64,000 nt of DNA from a phage (GCA_014687725.1 GCA_014687725.1_4094.1); one strand, 5' to 3'. Counted from the stretch's first letter, positions 54,556 to 58,779 are shown. A program made the numbers and translations. Notes: generated by a model not told the origin, from the letters alone.

Positions 54556-54783
54556 ATGACAAATACTCTTAAGCACTACCTCAATACTCTAAATGAACTA
54601 GAGTACGGGGAATTTCTCGCGGATAGTTCGTGGCTAATTGAGCTAAAAAATTATAATAGTCCAGGATGCACCCTTATGATGAACAATGCAATTGATACCC
54701 TCATTGTGAGTATTTTACACAGCAACATCTGCGGGGATAGCAATAAACAATTATCAAAAATCTTAGTACTGCTATCTATATGA
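54556..54783 (+). CDS. small paralog array protein (divergent member), 75 aa
   Basis: First gene of tandem array; hydrophobic C-terminus ILVLLSI. Confidence 0.5.
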   Translation: MTNTLKHYLNTLNELEYGEFLADSSWLIELKNYNSPGCTLMMNNAIDTLIVSILHSNICGDSNKQLSKILVLLSI

Positions 54784-54983
54784 ACATTGAACAGTACTAC
54801 ATCGATGCACTACCAACAAAAGGTCTACGAGAAAGCCTACTGTATACACAAAATACTTTTATACACTACAAACGTTGTCCTAAACTCCTGAACTCGTACA
54901 GGAGTAATATCATAAGAAATGCTTTACAAGGGGCAGAAAGTATGCAATACTATTATATCCTTGCCCTTTTAATCGAGTACTAA
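54780..54983 (+). CDS. small paralog array protein, 67 aa
   Basis: MNIEQYYIDAL ... YYYILALLIEY. Confidence 0.55.
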   Translation: MNIEQYYIDALPTKGLRESLLYTQNTFIHYKRCPKLLNSYRSNIIRNALQGAESMQYYYILALLIEY

Positions 54984-54984
54984 T

Positions 54985-55194
54985 ATGAATACTGAACATA
55001 AAGAATTCTACACCAAATACCTTAGCAACGAAGAACAATTGTTTCTAAGGAGTGTATCACCTGTAAGTACCAATACTCACTTCGGTAGAGATTGCTTTAA
55101 TAATTGTATACGTAGTACTCTAGAAGCAATCGAATGCAATAACAAAAATATTATGTACTCAGGTTTAATAGGACTAATCTACTTCTATGAATAA
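54985..55194 (+). CDS. small paralog array protein, 69 aa
   Basis: MNTEHKEFYTKYL ... FNNCIRSTL ... LIGLIYFYE; close paralog of 57998. Confidence 0.6.
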   Translation: MNTEHKEFYTKYLSNEEQLFLRSVSPVSTNTHFGRDCFNNCIRSTLEAIECNNKNIMYSGLIGLIYFYE

Positions 55195-55381
55195 TCATAA
55201 AGATTTCTATGGTAGTAAACTACACAAGCAAGACCAGCTATCATTCTCTTTAGCACCACCTATGAGAAAGGATAATCTATATTACAATTACGATTTCAGG
55301 ATGGCGACACGTTATGCAATAGAACATCAGTTCCCTGAAACTAAGTACCGCTCTATCCTGAACCTCATCTTTAAGTTCTAA
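55187..55381 (+). CDS. small paralog array protein, 64 aa
   Basis: MNNHKDFY ... ILNLIFKF. Confidence 0.55.
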   Translation: MNNHKDFYGSKLHKQDQLSFSLAPPMRKDNLYYNYDFRMATRYAIEHQFPETKYRSILNLIFKF

Positions 55382-55433
55382 AAGGTGCAACAGGAACCGA
55401 GTACTTTAATATAGTAAGGCTAATTACATTATA

Positions 55434-55619
55434 ATGAATCATATAAGCTACTACTACCAACAACTATCAGACAGAGACAAGTACAGTCACAACTCCCATG
55501 TGTGGTACTACAAACGCGGCAGTATAAGAGACAAACAACATTACTTCTGTATTTCTATTAAAGAAGCACTGACAACTAAGTACACGTACCGAGCAGTACT
55601 GAAACTTATTGAAATGTAA
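55434..55619 (+). CDS. small paralog array protein, 61 aa
   Basis: KYTYRAVLKLIEM C-terminus. Confidence 0.55.
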   Translation: MNHISYYYQQLSDRDKYSHNSHVWYYKRGSIRDKQHYFCISIKEALTTKYTYRAVLKLIEM

Positions 55620-55627
55620 GGAAGAAA

Positions 55628-55810
55628 ATGAACATAGAATTCTATTTAACTAAACTACAACACGCCGAAAGATTCAACTTCAATAAGTTCAATATTTTCT
55701 ACAATTGCGGGAACAAAAAAGATAAACACACCTTCCTATATGTCGTCACAAGAGATGCACAAAACGAAAAGTACACATACAGAGAAGTAATGAAACTAAT
55801 CGCTATTTAA
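55628..55810 (+). CDS. small paralog array protein, 60 aa
   Basis: KYTYREVMKLIAI C-terminus. Confidence 0.55.
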   Translation: MNIEFYLTKLQHAERFNFNKFNIFYNCGNKKDKHTFLYVVTRDAQNEKYTYREVMKLIAI

Positions 55811-55818
55811 GGAATACT

Positions 55819-55998
55819 ATGCAACAATTCTATAGAGAACGTATAACCATAAAAGACCGTTTCATGTACGACACCTTCGTGAAGTACTACAAACTAGGAA
55901 CAAAAAGTACTAAAAATATTAATCTCAATAGCTGCATTTATGCTGTACTAACACAAGATAATCCCTACAGGGAAATCCTCGCCCTGGCATCTATATAA
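55819..55998 (+). CDS. small paralog array protein, 59 aa (below track cutoff)
   Basis: MQQFYRERI ... NSCIYAVL ... ILALASI; fills gap in array. Confidence 0.45.
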   Translation: MQQFYRERITIKDRFMYDTFVKYYKLGTKSTKNINLNSCIYAVLTQDNPYREILALASI

Positions 55999-56008
55999 AG
56001 GAAACCAA

Positions 56009-56680
56009 ATGAAACTTAATGCACACAGCAAACAATACCTTAAGCACTTTAAGTACCTCAATAGTATTCAGGCAGAATCAGTTACATCTGCATATACGTA
56101 TCACCCGAATGTACTAAAGAAACGAAATAAAAAGGAAAAATCCAGTACAAATGGAGTTAACGTATCAAAGAACCTTGAATTGTACATGAAGAAAAATAAT
56201 ATAGCTGTTCATTATATGAATATCTATAATACTGATTTAAAAGTATTGAGTACTAATACGAGCACAAAGGTACTAAAGAACGCATCCTTCATCATCAATA
56301 TGCAGTTGGATAATACCCCGTGCACTTTAATGCTATACTTCGGGAATACATACTTCTTCGGGAATTGTAACACCTCCCACGATGTCAATACAGCACAATT
56401 CCAAATGGGTGGCATATACAATATGGGTTCAAAAAAAGTACACGAGAATATGCACTTCTGGCAAGCACAACGTACAGAAGAAACTAAATCAATTGTAGAT
56501 TTCCTCAAAGAACTAGAACACAAAGAACTACAGGAAGAAGAACTATTCATGTACAGTACTGTAATCGATAATCCAGTACTCTATAAAAACGCGTACAATC
56601 TGACAAAACATGTACAGGAAATTATCAGTACTAATAAGAAAATGCATCACCTCATTACGTATATTACAAACTATGTATAA
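56009..56680 (+). CDS. hypothetical protein (223 aa) embedded in small-gene array
   Basis: Larger ORF interrupting the array; next gene start overlaps its stop. Confidence 0.55.
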   Translation: MKLNAHSKQYLKHFKYLNSIQAESVTSAYTYHPNVLKKRNKKEKSSTNGVNVSKNLELYMKKNNIAVHYMNIYNTDLKVLSTNTSTKVLKNASFIINMQLDNTPCTLMLYFGNTYFFGNCNTSHDVNTAQFQMGGIYNMGSKKVHENMHFWQAQRTEETKSIVDFLKELEHKELQEEELFMYSTVIDNPVLYKNAYNLTKHVQEIISTNKKMHHLITYITNYV

Positions 56681-56855
56681 AGAATACTACCAAGAACATC
56701 TCCCAATGCATCTCCAACACCTTGTACCCAAAGAACCAATAGGAATAAAAGATCACGCAAAAATAATGTTCCAACAATGTACTAAGTACACGCTCATATA
56801 CGATGATAATCCATATATGCTGTACTACGTAGTAATGCTAACATTCAGGTACTAA
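56673..56855 (+). CDS. small paralog array protein, 60 aa
   Basis: MYKEYYQEHLPMHLQHLVP ... VVMLTFRY; paralog of 57045. Confidence 0.55.
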   Translation: MYKEYYQEHLPMHLQHLVPKEPIGIKDHAKIMFQQCTKYTLIYDDNPYMLYYVVMLTFRY

Positions 56856-57420: not shown

Positions 57421-57421
57421 C

Positions 57422-57610
57422 ATGCATAAAGAATACTACACAAAATATTTCCCAATGTACCTCAGAACTAATCTATTAGATAAACCTCGCGGTATCAATG
57501 CACAAAATGATAAAGTGTATTTTACTATGTGCACTAAAGCATGTATACTAGATTTTGACAGCTATCATCGAGTACTGTATCATACCCTGTACCTAGCTTT
57601 CGTATTCTAA
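57422..57610 (+). CDS. small paralog array protein, 62 aa
   Basis: MHKEYYTKYF ... LYLAFVF; internal ATG of track ORF 57377-57610. Confidence 0.55.
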   Translation: MHKEYYTKYFPMYLRTNLLDKPRGINAQNDKVYFTMCTKACILDFDSYHRVLYHTLYLAFVF

Positions 57611-57619
57611 GAGAACAAT

Positions 57620-57805
57620 ATGCATAAAGAATTCTACTTAAGCCATCTGGATCTAAACTCCCAAATGCTTATACCACTAATCCCAATAGATATCAAGGAT
57701 AAGAAAAATACCGAACAATTCATTTACCATACACAGTGTGCGATCACCCCAAATTACATTCCATATGAATTGTACTACATTATCGCCCTAATATATAGGT
57801 ACTAA
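57620..57805 (+). CDS. small paralog array protein, 61 aa
   Basis: MHKEFYLSHL ... IIALIYRY. Confidence 0.6.
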   Translation: MHKEFYLSHLDLNSQMLIPLIPIDIKDKKNTEQFIYHTQCAITPNYIPYELYYIIALIYRY

Positions 57806-57806
57806 T

Positions 57807-57992
57807 ATGCATAGAGAATACTACACACAATTTGTTAAAGGGAACTACAAACATGCCGTACCCAGAACCCCTTTAAATTCTCATGACCCAAGTACTATAT
57901 TCTTGTTCCATGACGCAATACGTACAGTACTCAATACTAAAGATGAAGATGTGCAGTACGTATTCTTACTATTACTTATATACAGACACTAA
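57807..57992 (+). CDS. small paralog array protein, 61 aa
   Basis: MHREYYTQFV ... LLLLIYRH. Confidence 0.6.
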   Translation: MHREYYTQFVKGNYKHAVPRTPLNSHDPSTIFLFHDAIRTVLNTKDEDVQYVFLLLLIYRH

Positions 57993-57997
57993 CTAAT

Positions 57998-58207
57998 ATG
58001 AATAAAGAACATAAAGAATTCTACTCCAAATACATAAGCCCCTCAGAACAAATGTTTCTAAGGACTACACCACCTTTAAGTACTAATACATATTTCGGCA
58101 GAGTATGCTACAATAATTGTATTCAAATGACTTTAAACGCAAACGAAGATGGTAACAGTACTAACCTGTACTCAGGTATCATAGGTATACTATTCCTGTA
58201 TGAATAA
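57998..58207 (+). CDS. small paralog array protein, 69 aa
   Basis: MNKEHKEFYSKYI ... YNNCIQMTL ... GILFLYE. Confidence 0.6.
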   Translation: MNKEHKEFYSKYISPSEQMFLRTTPPLSTNTYFGRVCYNNCIQMTLNANEDGNSTNLYSGIIGILFLYE

Positions 58208-58388
58208 TTACAAAGACTTCTATTTGAATACACTACCTACTGTACTTTCTCTAAGTGCTCAATGTAAAATCCCGCTGGATAATGCTTACGCCAGATATAG
58301 CTATTCCATAACTGTTAATCGATGTATAGAGAATCATTGCAGTACTAACCAGTACTATAACATAATCCTACTTATATTCAGGTACTAA
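58200..58388 (+). CDS. small paralog array protein, 62 aa
   Basis: MNNYKDFYLNTL ... ILLIFRY. Confidence 0.6.
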   Translation: MNNYKDFYLNTLPTVLSLSAQCKIPLDNAYARYSYSITVNRCIENHCSTNQYYNIILLIFRY

Positions 58389-58389
58389 T

Positions 58390-58572
58390 ATGAATAAAGA
58401 ACATAAAGAATTCTATATACGAAAACTAACATTCGTCCCCGTAAGAATATATAAAGAATGCGACCCAAGATTATACCTATGGCACTTCAATGAGTGCATA
58501 AAAGATTCTATATACCCTAAGAACTACAAAGAACAATTGTGCTCAGTACTAACACTAGTACTATCATATTAA
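58390..58572 (+). CDS. small paralog array protein, 60 aa
   Basis: MNKEHKEFYIRKL ... FNECIKDSI ... LTLVLSY. Confidence 0.6.
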   Translation: MNKEHKEFYIRKLTFVPVRIYKECDPRLYLWHFNECIKDSIYPKNYKEQLCSVLTLVLSY

Positions 58573-58587
58573 TTAATAGAGAATACT

Positions 58588-58779
58588 ATGTATAAAAACT
58601 TCTATATAAGTAAACTAAAAGAAAATGAACAAGTATGGATTAGATCTATAATTCCACTGGCATTTAATAGATATGCATTTAACAGATGTACCGAGATTGC
58701 TATAGACCCTTATAATATTAAAGAGAATGTACAGTATAATCAGTACTACTATATCTTAATGCTTATATATAGGAAGTAA
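58588..58779 (+). CDS. small paralog array protein, 63 aa
   Basis: MYKNFYISKL ... FNRCTEIAI ... LMLIYRK. Confidence 0.6.
   Translation: MYKNFYISKLKENEQVWIRSIIPLAFNRYAFNRCTEIAIDPYNIKENVQYNQYYYILMLIYRK

What the first reader, a model, noticed from the sequence alone, without database searches (positions are those of the whole stretch)
54556..58779. Tandem array of 18 small (59-75 aa) paralogous proteins
Eighteen consecutive plus-strand ORFs, interrupted only by one 223-aa gene, share an N-terminal M-[NH]-K-E-(H-K-E)-[FY]-Y...[KQ]-[YF]-L, a central F-N-[NRE]-C-I motif in many members, and a hydrophobic C-terminus ...LLI[YF]RY. Junctions are zero to a few nucleotides, often TAATATG stop-start overlaps, so the array is likely one operon driven by the promoter at 54502. 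Two members fall just under the 60-aa ORF cutoff and were recovered by eye. Such deep amplification of a tiny protein is unusual and suggests dosage or diversification selection; anti-defence or host-takeover roles are speculation.
Basis: partly seen in the sequence, partly recalled or inferred. Interest (0 to 1): 0.8.

Follow-up and report, generated by a model that had tools for sequence, protein, structure and literature searches.

The report
Small helical protein gene array, jumbo coliphage
A jumbo E. coli phage of the 121Q/PBECO4 group carries one tightly packed operon of about 17 related 60-residue helical proteins of unknown function; the family is real, found only in this phage genus, and changes by gain and loss of whole genes, but what it does is still a guess.

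Summary
The array is real. The window comes from an Asteriusvirus jumbo coliphage (121Q/PBECO4/JP4 relatives).

**Membership of the 18 small plus-strand ORFs**
- 13 are one clear family, PHROG 11711, function unknown.
- 3 (m05-m07) are a distant sister subfamily, supported by profile-profile comparison and a matching predicted four-helix layout.
- 1 (m02) is a probable relative.
- 1 (m01) is unsupported.

**Coding and expression signals**
- The ORFs stay open in 11 genomes, with pooled dN/dS of 0.3-0.5.
- AlphaFold gives confident all-helical models.
- A sigma70-like promoter and Shine-Dalgarno site are nearly invariant.
- Cistrons are translationally coupled. The C-terminal Arg-Tyr codons (AGG TAC) double as the next gene's ribosome-binding site.

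**Evolution**
- Related phages carry 16-22 copies drawn from 41 orthogroups, almost always one copy per orthogroup.
- Indels remove or add whole genes, bounded by 31-50-nt shared junctions.
- This pattern indicates diversification, not dosage.

**Known relatives**
No Pfam, NCBIfam, PADLOC, PDB or viral-structure match exists beyond the family itself.

**Function**
Function is inferred only. The most likely role is early, non-virion, soluble binders of host or defence targets. Tandem arrays in 121Q have been mentioned in print, so this is a moderately interesting, uncharacterised member of a known kind of phage gene expansion.

The parts
54502..54530 (+). Sigma70-like promoter of the array: TTGACA (54502-54507), 17-nt spacer containing the palindrome CAGTACTG (54514-54521), TACTAT (54525-54530)
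   Evidence: Consensus scan; sequence; nearly invariant in 11 related genomes. Activity not shown.
54542..54547 (+). Shine-Dalgarno AAGGAG of the first cistron
   Evidence: Sequence; invariant in 11 genomes
54556..54783 (+). m01, 75 aa, first cistron; family membership not supported
   Evidence: ORF; conserved orthologues at 76-99%; no significant profile match to the family
54780..54983 (+). m02, 67 aa; probable distant relative (own subfamily, 1-3 copies per genome)
   Evidence: hhalign to core 46%, E 2e-4, near full length; copy counts
54985..55194 (+). m03, 69 aa, core family; first gene of a two-gene unit (m03-m04) duplicated as m16-m17
   Evidence: HMM E 1.4e-25; phrog_11711 E 1.7e-12; 59% identical to m16; 74-76% nt identity between the two units
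55187..55381 (+). m04, 64 aa, core family; overlaps m03 by 8 nt
   Evidence: HMM E 8e-24; phrog_11711 E 1.4e-21
55382..55434 (+). The 52-nt 'gap': the 3' remnant of an m02-like gene (reads GATGTEYFNIVRLITL*). The promoter-like match here is probably a by-product.
   Evidence: Alignment with genomes that keep the intact gene
55434..55619 (+). m05, 61 aa, sister subfamily (s567)
   Evidence: AlphaFold pLDDT 88.6, helices 3-9, 13-28, 31-47, 51-60
55628..55810 (+). m06, 60 aa, sister subfamily
55819..55998 (+). m07, 59 aa, sister subfamily
56009..56680 (+). 223-aa gene embedded in the array (phrog_29152, unknown function). Not a family member. Conserved at this position in all relatives.
   Evidence: dN/dS 0.37-0.62
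56673..56855 (+). m09, 60 aa, core family (corrected start; overlaps the 223-aa gene by 8 nt)
56857..57036 (+). m10, 59 aa, core family
   Evidence: HMM E 1.6e-19
57045..57236 (+). m11, 63 aa, core family; the member modelled
   Evidence: HMM E 2.3e-26; AlphaFold pLDDT 92.6, pTM 0.76, helices 3-9, 14-17, 30-45, 49-62
57238..57420 (+). m12, 60 aa, core family
57422..57610 (+). m13, 62 aa, core family (corrected start)
57620..57805 (+). m14, 61 aa, core family
57807..57992 (+). m15, 61 aa, core family
57998..58207 (+). m16, 69 aa, core family; with m17 forms a two-gene unit that is absent from 121Q and SP27
58200..58388 (+). m17, 62 aa, core family
58390..58572 (+). m18, 60 aa, core family. Its first 31 nt (with the junction) are identical to those of m16. 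This repeat bounds the m16-m17 indel.
58588..58779 (+). m19, 63 aa, core family, last cistron; present in all 11 genomes
58791..58895 (+). Conserved non-coding element just 3' of the array: a long imperfect hairpin (arms 58791-58813 and 58865-58887). Positions 58833-58895 are nearly invariant. No U-tract follows. Role unknown; possibly a 3' end or stability element of the operon mRNA.
   Evidence: Alignment; fold -36.7 kcal/mol, z -4.6; inverted repeat I6

Best explanation
**Shown**
- This is a genus-restricted multigene family of roughly 60-residue, soluble, all-helical proteins: 13 core members, 3 from a sister subfamily and 1 probable relative.
- Together with an unrelated first gene and a 223-aa gene, they form one plus-strand operon. 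It sits behind a conserved sigma70-type promoter and is divergent from an array of RCC1-like virion-protein genes.
- Cistrons are translationally coupled. In many members the last two codons, AGG TAC (Arg-Tyr), followed by TAA-N-ATG, serve as the ribosome-binding site of the next gene.
- The array evolves by birth and death of whole genes, through recombination at the conserved gene junctions and 5' ends. Related phages therefore carry 16-22 copies drawn from at least 41 orthogroups, about one copy of each.
- The hydrophobic-core positions and both termini are conserved. The rest of each protein is free to vary.

**Inferred**
- The operon is read by host RNA polymerase before late genes.
- Its products stay in the infected cell.
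- Each paralogue acts as a small binder or inhibitor of a different host or host-defence protein. The array would then be a repertoire kept diverse by an arms race, not a dosage device.
For: **Real and coding**
- 13 members score E 1e-17 to 2e-26 against the family profile, against noise at >= 0.05.
- They match phrog_11711.
- ORFs are intact in 11 genomes: 224 members found, with only a few truncated.
- Pooled dN/dS is 0.30-0.50.
- AlphaFold pLDDT is 92.6 and 88.6, with the same helix order in both models.

**Operon**
- The promoter and Shine-Dalgarno site are nearly invariant in 11 genomes.
- Gaps between cistrons are -8 to +15 nt.
- The C-terminal Arg uses codon AGG in 29 of 37 cases. Elsewhere in the family it is 43 of 309, and in long ORFs of the window 7 of 168.
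- The late-promoter motif TATAAATA is absent from the locus. It occurs only twice in the window, against 13.8 expected.
- Downstream genes on the same strand carry repeated strong sigma70-type promoters.

**Diversification**
- Paralogues are 25-59% identical and orthologues 76-100%.
- There are 41 orthogroups, almost always single-copy per genome, and only 4 are universal.
- Indels are gene-precise and bounded by 31-50-nt shared sequence.
- A remnant of a replaced gene survives at 55382-55434.

**Soluble and non-structural**
- No 19-residue window reaches a hydrophobicity of 1.6, and the longest uncharged run is 13 residues.
- The phAPEC6 virion proteome lists two RCC1-like proteins and none of the small proteins (PMC7247149).

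**Rate of change**
- The operon has about twice the dN/dS of the adjacent RCC1-like gene, which is 0.16-0.28.
Against: - No expression data exist for any Asteriusvirus. The promoter is a consensus match, with only 4 of 6 matches in the -10 hexamer.
- No target, toxicity or phenotype is known.
- There is no similarity to any known anti-defence or takeover protein, in sequence or in fold.
- dN/dS below 1 shows constraint, not positive selection. Site-wise tests were not possible.
- Very small proteins can be missed by virion mass spectrometry.
- The strong conservation of both termini could serve something other than folding, such as targeting or recombination.
Confidence: 0.4

Rival explanations
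1. Packaged (internal, injected) proteins. The conserved N-terminus M-x-HKE[FY]Y would be a capsid-targeting signal, as in the T-even internal-protein locus. The variable bodies would be injected with the DNA to block host restriction or defence.
For: - The N-terminus is conserved on otherwise divergent paralogues.
- T-even internal proteins are described as a highly diverse set of defence-countering proteins sharing only a capsid-targeting sequence (PMC3012670).
- 121Q shows an inner-body-like bubblegram pattern (PMC5646251).
- The array lies next to virion-protein genes.
Against: - None of the small proteins appears among the 62 virion proteins of phAPEC6, although a 4.7-kDa protein was detected there.
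- Homology runs the full length of the protein, and the C-terminus is as conserved as the N-terminus.
- The N-terminal helix is part of the confident fold.
- There is no late promoter.
- By eye I saw no consistent (L/I)-x-E protease site. That consensus is recalled from memory and was not tested.
Confidence: 0.12
2. Dedicated partners (chaperones, assembly or specificity factors) of the neighbouring RCC1-like virion-protein paralogues, one small protein per large paralogue.
For: - The two arrays are adjacent and divergent, and both are expanded in this genus. There are about 12-14 RCC1-like ORFs or fragments and 13 core small genes in the window.
- The arrangement is kept in all relatives, including two divergent metagenomic contigs.
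Against: - The two arrays have different regulatory signals. Each RCC1-like gene has its own hairpin and promoter-like box.
- The small proteins are absent from virions.
- Yersinia phage fHe-Yen9-04 has at least 5 tandem RCC1-like genes. No small-family member turned up outside Asteriusvirus-like phage genomes and contigs.
- Small-gene number varies from 16 to 22. Co-variation with RCC1-like gene number could not be measured.
Confidence: 0.12
3. Phage-internal regulators. The small proteins would bind nucleic acid or polymerase and tune phage transcription or replication, as proposed for the roughly 35-copy zinc-ribbon expansion of Bacillus phage G.
For: - The precedent is a lineage-specific expansion of a small protein in a jumbo phage, interpreted as transcription factors or DNA-binding proteins (PMC7824862).
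- Many members are mildly basic, with pI 8-9.5.
- An abundant palindrome, CAGTACTG, has no known binding protein.
Against: - There is no helix-turn-helix, zinc-ribbon or other nucleic-acid-binding fold match.
- Only one Cys is conserved.
- pI ranges from 5.0 to 9.5, with no consistent charge.
Confidence: 0.1
4. Largely dispensable products of a recombination-prone locus (a genomic accordion). The genes would be kept because junction homology keeps regenerating them and a large capsid tolerates the extra DNA, with weak or redundant function, or mere dosage.
For: - dN/dS is relatively high.
- Presence and absence vary, and only 4 of 41 orthogroups are universal.
- Junction repeats promote unequal exchange.
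- The 5' codons show nucleotide-level bias: position 7 is NNC in 87 of 91 cases, and K5 is AAA in 85 of 85.
- Tandem duplication has been proposed as a route to jumbo genomes.
Against: - Old paralogues (25-59% identity) remain intact and are conserved as orthologues at 76-100%.
- Almost no pseudogenes are seen.
- Core residues are conserved, and Y8 is invariant with both synonymous codons in use.
- Near-identical copies, which dosage would favour, are rare. One 89%-identical pair exists in 121Q.
Confidence: 0.1
5. Non-coding degenerate repeats, or small membrane peptides.
For: Short ORFs in AT-rich DNA, with hydrophobic C-termini.
Against: - Coding is supported.
- No segment is long or hydrophobic enough to span a membrane.
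- The tandem-repeat reading fails because the units differ in sequence far more at the DNA level than in the protein pattern.
Confidence: 0.02

Closest known systems
PHROG phrog_11711 (unknown function) and the 'hypothetical protein' genes 121Q_249-265, PBECO4 gp281-285 region, phAPEC6 gp542c/gp545c
   Same: The same protein family and the same locus. Five tested core members match at E 1.6e-6 to 1.3e-25. The locus is 94.7-97.5% identical in DNA to JP4 and 121Q.
   Different: The catalogue entry gives no function, structure or description of the array. m01, m02 and m05-m07 are not in that PHROG.
Internal-protein (IP) locus of T-even phages
   Same: A polymorphic cluster of small, fast-diversifying phage proteins with a conserved N-terminus. 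The protein set differs between close relatives. IPI* has a proven anti-restriction role (PMC3012670).
   Different: IPs share only the targeting peptide and are found in virions. Here homology is full-length, both termini are conserved, and no member was seen in the phAPEC6 virion proteome.
[quoted passage not shown]
   Same: A tandem expansion of a small protein in a jumbo phage, attributed to tandem duplication.
   Different: This is a different fold: all-helical, with one conserved Cys and no CxxC pairs. The published remark on 121Q does not say which genes are meant and gives no analysis.
Poxvirus-type genomic accordions
   Same: Copy-number change by recombination between tandem copies, in a gene family thought to face host defences (PMC13359090).
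   Different: Accordions amplify near-identical copies for dosage over short timescales. Here the copies are old and divergent, with one per orthogroup.

Membership tests
phrog_11711 (small Asteriusvirus protein family) | Significant full-length match to the family profile | tested here: met
   m03, m04, m11, m12 and m18 match at E 1.7e-12, 1.4e-21, 1.3e-25, 2e-24 and 1.6e-6 over profile positions 1-62. All 13 core members score E <= 1.3e-17 against a window-built profile.
phrog_11711 (small Asteriusvirus protein family) | The same match for m01, m02, m05 and m07 | tested here: not met
   No PHROG hit at E <= 0.01. In the core-profile search they lie in the noise. m05-m07 and m02 are linked only by profile-profile comparison.
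T-even internal proteins (capsid-targeted, injected) | Presence in the virion | tested here: not met
   The published phAPEC6 virion proteome lists RCC1-like gp549 and gp551 but no small-array protein. This is indirect evidence from a related phage, and small proteins can be missed.
T-even internal proteins (capsid-targeted, injected) | Similarity confined to an N-terminal targeting peptide that the prohead protease removes | tested here: not met
   Similarity spans the whole protein, and the C-terminus is equally conserved. Cleavage itself cannot be tested with these tools.
Zinc-ribbon expansions (phage G type) | Two CxxC/CxxH pairs that bind zinc | tested here: not met
   Only one Cys column (C39) is conserved, and members have 0-3 Cys. 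The model is all-helical.
Small membrane proteins (holin, spanin or exclusion type) | A hydrophobic segment long enough to span the membrane | tested here: not met
   The maximum 19-residue Kyte-Doolittle mean is 1.18, the longest uncharged run is 13 residues, and GRAVY is mostly negative.
Helix-turn-helix (Cro/excisionase-like) regulators and any solved fold | Significant structural match | tested here: not met
Known defence-system proteins (PADLOC), Pfam and NCBIfam families | Profile match above threshold | tested here: not met
   No hits for family members. No dedicated anti-defence library was available.
Early (host-polymerase) transcription unit | Transcription early in infection from the sigma70-like promoter | not testable with these tools
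   Only sequence evidence is available: the consensus match and its conservation, and the absence of TATAAATA. No Asteriusvirus transcriptome was found in the literature search.

The most novel reading that the evidence does not exclude
The array is a cassette library of mini-binders on a previously undescribed 60-residue four-helix scaffold. Each orthogroup neutralises a different host defence or host protein variant. The conserved gene junctions, which also carry the ribosome-binding sites, act as built-in recombination sites. Co-infecting phages could use them to swap whole cassettes in frame and still expressed, in the manner of an integron but without an integrase.
Probability: 0.15. Interest if true: 0.75.

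Novelty: new member of a known kind. Interest (0 to 1): 0.45.

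Why it matters
If the members are specific binders of host or defence proteins, one phage genus offers more than 40 natural variants of a tiny, confidently folding scaffold. These could be mined as inhibitors and as probes of E. coli immunity.

The locus is also a clean natural example of two things:
- A phage gene family turning over gene by gene, through recombination at conserved junctions.
- Dual-use codons, where the C-terminal Arg-Tyr of one protein is the ribosome-binding site of the next.

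If instead the genes are dispensable, the locus documents how jumbo genomes accumulate DNA. Either outcome can be tested with existing phages (121Q, PBECO4, phAPEC6).

Tried and rejected
- **C-terminus of the 223-aa protein as a fused family domain.** Rejected: hhalign probability is at most 1.4%.
- **m01 as a member.** Not supported even with a superfamily profile: E 0.38, with hhalign aligning only the first 14 residues.
- **Two long 'hits' in the 1.84-billion-protein search (P0092, P0098).** These are translations of repeats, not relatives.
- **Counting RCC1-like paralogues per genome by tblastn 'places'.** This failed because the tool did not separate the paralogues. Co-variation with the small array therefore stays untested.
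- **The promoter-like site in the 52-nt gap (55406-55435).** Reinterpreted as the remnant coding sequence of a lost m02-like gene.
- **Rfam.** It found only the four tRNAs.
- **Literature searches.** Searches for Asteriusvirus transcriptomes or functional work on these genes found none.

Full report
**Origin of the window**

The stretch 54000-59500 matches 37 phage records by megablast, all jumbo coliphages or Salmonella phages of about 350 kb. JP4 matches at 94.7% over 100% of the query and 121Q at 97.5% over 91%. 121Q is classified in the genus Asteriusvirus. In those records the genes of this locus are all annotated 'hypothetical protein'.

**Check of the observation**

- All 18 small plus-strand ORFs and the 223-aa ORF are present.
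- Two ORFs were listed with upstream-extended starts. The family-conform starts are 56673 (m09) and 57422 (m13).
- Pairwise identities among members are 25-59%. Examples: m03/m16 59%, m09/m11 50%, m12/m17 42%.
- A profile built from 13 members finds exactly those 13 in a six-frame search of the whole window, at E 1.3e-17 to 2.3e-26. The next hit is noise at E 0.053. m01, m02 and m05-m07 score E 0.5-6.
- Five tested core members match PHROG phrog_11711 (unknown function). m01, m02, m05 and m07 match no PHROG. The 223-aa protein is phrog_29152, also unknown.
- m05-m07 are related to each other. Using alignments enlarged with orthologues from eight related phages, hhalign links them to the core at 90.9% probability, E 1.1e-6, end to end. 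It links m02 at 46%, E 2e-4. It does not link m01 or the C-terminus of the 223-aa protein.
- With shallower alignments the link between core and m05-type drops to 43%, E 2.5e-4.
- A combined profile still does not recover m01.
- Count: 13 certain, 3 well-supported distant, 1 probable and 1 unproven.

**Evidence that the ORFs code for protein**

- In 11 genomes or contigs the same ORFs are open. 224 members were recovered, and only a few were truncated or lacked a start.
- Pooled Nei-Gojobori dN/dS between window members and their best counterparts in eight phages is 0.30-0.50.
- The adjacent RCC1-like gene gives 0.16-0.28, and the embedded 223-aa gene gives 0.37-0.62.
- AlphaFold2 with only the 13 window paralogues as alignment gives a confident model of m11: pLDDT 92.6, pTM 0.76, helices 3-9, 14-17, 30-45 and 49-62.
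- m05 with 13 subfamily sequences gives pLDDT 88.6, with helices 3-9, 13-28, 31-47 and 51-60. The helix order is the same, and the second helix is longer.
- The most conserved columns are K5, E6, [FY]7, Y8, L12, P24, F36, C39, [TI]40, I44, [YL]53, L57, L59, I60 and [FY]61. Positions between them are highly variable. By helical periodicity these columns look like one buried face. This is inference, because I could not inspect coordinates.
- The proteins are Tyr-rich, with 15-21% aromatic residues and pI 5.0-9.5.
- None has a segment that could span a membrane.

**Operon anatomy**

- A sigma70-like promoter, TTGACA-17-TACTAT, lies at 54502-54530. AAGGAG lies at 54542-54547, and the first ATG is at 54556.
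- This roughly 60-nt stretch is nearly invariant in all 11 genomes, including two more divergent metagenomic contigs. The coding sequence right after it varies.
- Inter-cistron distances are -8 to +15 nt, apart from one 52-nt gap and the 223-aa gene.
- Five junctions read AGGTACTAA(T/C)ATG.
- The Arg near the C-terminus uses AGG in 29 of 37 cases. Elsewhere in the family AGG accounts for 43 of 309 Arg codons, and in 16 long ORFs of the window 7 of 168.
- I read this as dual use: the codons for the conserved C-terminal Arg-Tyr are the Shine-Dalgarno site of the next cistron.
- The T4-type late motif TATAAATA is strongly avoided in the window (2 sites against 13.8 expected) and is absent from this locus.
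- Genes further downstream on the same strand each carry a repeated strong promoter module, AAAAAGTACTTGCAAA...GCGTATAAT. This resembles the RpoD-like promoters with UP elements described for the presumed early region of the related phage CBB (PMC5259590).
- Early transcription is therefore plausible but not shown. I found no Asteriusvirus transcriptome.

**How the array changes**

- The nine phage genomes (this window and eight GenBank relatives) and the two long metagenomic contigs carry 16-22 members: core 11-14, m05-type 3-6, m02-type 1-3 and m01 one.
- Clustering at 65% identity gives 41 orthogroups, almost always one copy per genome, and only 4 are present in all 11.
- Most duplications are therefore much older than the divergence of these phages, and the copies are kept distinct. 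One recent duplicate (89% nt identity) exists in 121Q.
- Differences between genomes are gene-precise.
  - The two-gene unit m16-m17 is missing in 121Q and SP27. The breakpoint lies in the 31 nt that are identical at the starts of m16 and m18.
  - The three extra m05-type genes of JP4 and SP27 are bounded by a 38-nt overlap at a gene junction.
  - m16-m17 is itself a 74-76% identical copy of m03-m04.
- The 52-nt 'gap' before m05 is the last 16 codons of an m02-like gene that is intact in BF17, EC.P1, fEgEco12, UB and TH47.
- Codon choice at the conserved 5' end is biased: K5 is AAA in 85 of 85 cases, and position 7 is NNC in 87 of 91. The invariant Y8 uses both TAC (67) and TAT (24). Both protein-level and DNA-level constraints therefore act there.

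**Distribution and comparison with known families**

- A profile search of 5.8 billion clustered proteins returned 73 clusters. Every one that carries a source name comes from an Asteriusvirus-like coliphage or Salmonella phage, and the long carrying contigs are of about 310-385 kb.
- An exhaustive HMMER search of 1.84 billion representatives returned 34 hits. Two of them are repeat artefacts.
- The m05-type subfamily (16 clusters) and the 223-aa protein (22 clusters) have the same narrow range.
- There are no matches in Pfam, NCBIfam or PADLOC.
- There is no PDB sequence match.
- BFVD returns only family members.

**Surroundings**

- Upstream, on the minus strand (40268-54471), lie about 12-14 paralogous RCC1-like ORFs or fragments. 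Each is preceded by a hairpin and an ATTAAATATAGTATAAT box.
- Two such proteins are virion components in phAPEC6. No small-array protein appears in that proteome (PMC7247149).
- The arrangement of RCC1-like array, then small array, is kept in two divergent metagenomic contigs.
- A Yersinia jumbo phage has at least five tandem RCC1-like genes. No small-family member turned up outside Asteriusvirus-like phage genomes and contigs in either database search.
- Published work notes the RCC1-like expansion. [quoted passage not shown] I found no description of the small-protein family itself.

**Interpretation**

The structural and evolutionary picture is well supported. Function is not. I commit to early, cytoplasmic, diversified binders of host or defence proteins, at about 0.4, for these reasons:
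- the host-type promoter and the neighbouring early-type region;
- absence from the virion;
- a conserved core with a variable remainder;
- a faster protein-level rate than the neighbouring structural gene;
- presence/absence turnover between close relatives.

Rivals are a T-even internal-protein-like packaged set, partners of the RCC1-like proteins, phage-internal regulators, and a largely dispensable recombination product. Each has a concrete refuting experiment listed in its entry. The non-coding and membrane-peptide readings are rejected.

**Verdict**

This is a genuine, uncharacterised, genus-restricted multigene family. It is already catalogued without function. It belongs to a known kind of phenomenon, namely lineage-specific tandem expansions in jumbo phages. 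The interest is moderate. The gene-precise turnover, the dual-use junction codons and the confident orphan fold are the notable points.

Noticed in passing
whole window; e.g. 16529, 31443, 54514, 59422; dense in 59000-62800: The 8-bp palindrome CAGTACTG occurs 50 times against 1.06 expected, both inside genes and between them. 18 of the sites lie in 56000-64000. Three strong promoter-like sites read TTGACA-N8-CAGTACTG-TATAAT (16515, 31429, 59408), and the array's own promoter has the palindrome in its spacer. Flanks often extend it to TTCAGTACTGAA. It could be an operator, or a modification or recognition site. The binding protein is unknown.
   Followed up: partly
window 40268-54471, minus strand: An array of about 12-14 paralogous RCC1-like (beta-propeller) ORFs or fragments of roughly 380 aa. 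Each has an upstream hairpin (GCCAGTACTTGATACTGGC-type), an ATTAAATATAGTATAAT box and AAGGAGG. Two orthologues are virion proteins in phAPEC6. The order of paralogues differs between phages.
   Followed up: partly
window 53305-54471, minus strand: The mechanically listed 388-aa ORF probably starts at its seventh codon (ATG at 54453, MLPFVR...), which follows AAGGAGG. This gives 382 aa, as annotated in JP4 and 121Q.
   Followed up: partly
window 58791-58895: A non-coding element directly after the array. Positions 58833-58895 are nearly invariant in 11 genomes. It forms a long imperfect hairpin of -36.7 kcal/mol, z -4.6. There is no U-tract and no Rfam match. The 5' arm differs in BF17-type genomes without obvious compensation.
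   Followed up: partly
window 58780-60770: About 2 kb without plausible genes. It is rich in short direct repeats (ATCA-type at 58897-58954 and 59107-59130; GGATTTTGG and GGCTAGA types at 59761-59941). It also holds CAGTACTG sites and promoter-like sites, including a perfect TTGACA-16-TATAAT at 59408-59435. It may be a regulatory or origin-like region.
   Followed up: no
window 60677, 61139, 61814, 62373, 62491: A repeated promoter module of about 41-70 nt (AAAAAGTACTTGCAAAcTATGTTTAAAGGCGTATAATgTTTTACATC) precedes successive small plus-strand genes. These are probably the strong early promoters of this phage.
   Followed up: no
window 25404 and 26053: The T4-type late-promoter motif TATAAATA is strongly under-represented (2 sites against 13.8 expected). 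Both sites lie just upstream of plus-strand genes at 25448 and 26077.
   Followed up: no
window 36-301 and 1811-1884: Four phage tRNA genes: Ser-ACU, Met-CAU, Asn-GUU and Thr-UGU. No tRNA-Arg(CCU) lies in this window, although AGG is used systematically at the array junctions.
   Followed up: no
database hits P0115, P0116, P0125; P0026: Several family and 223-aa-protein sequences are deposited as 'hypothetical protein [Escherichia coli]' on contigs of about 354-383 kb. These look like whole Asteriusvirus genomes sitting in E. coli assemblies, from a carrier state or from contamination.
   Followed up: no
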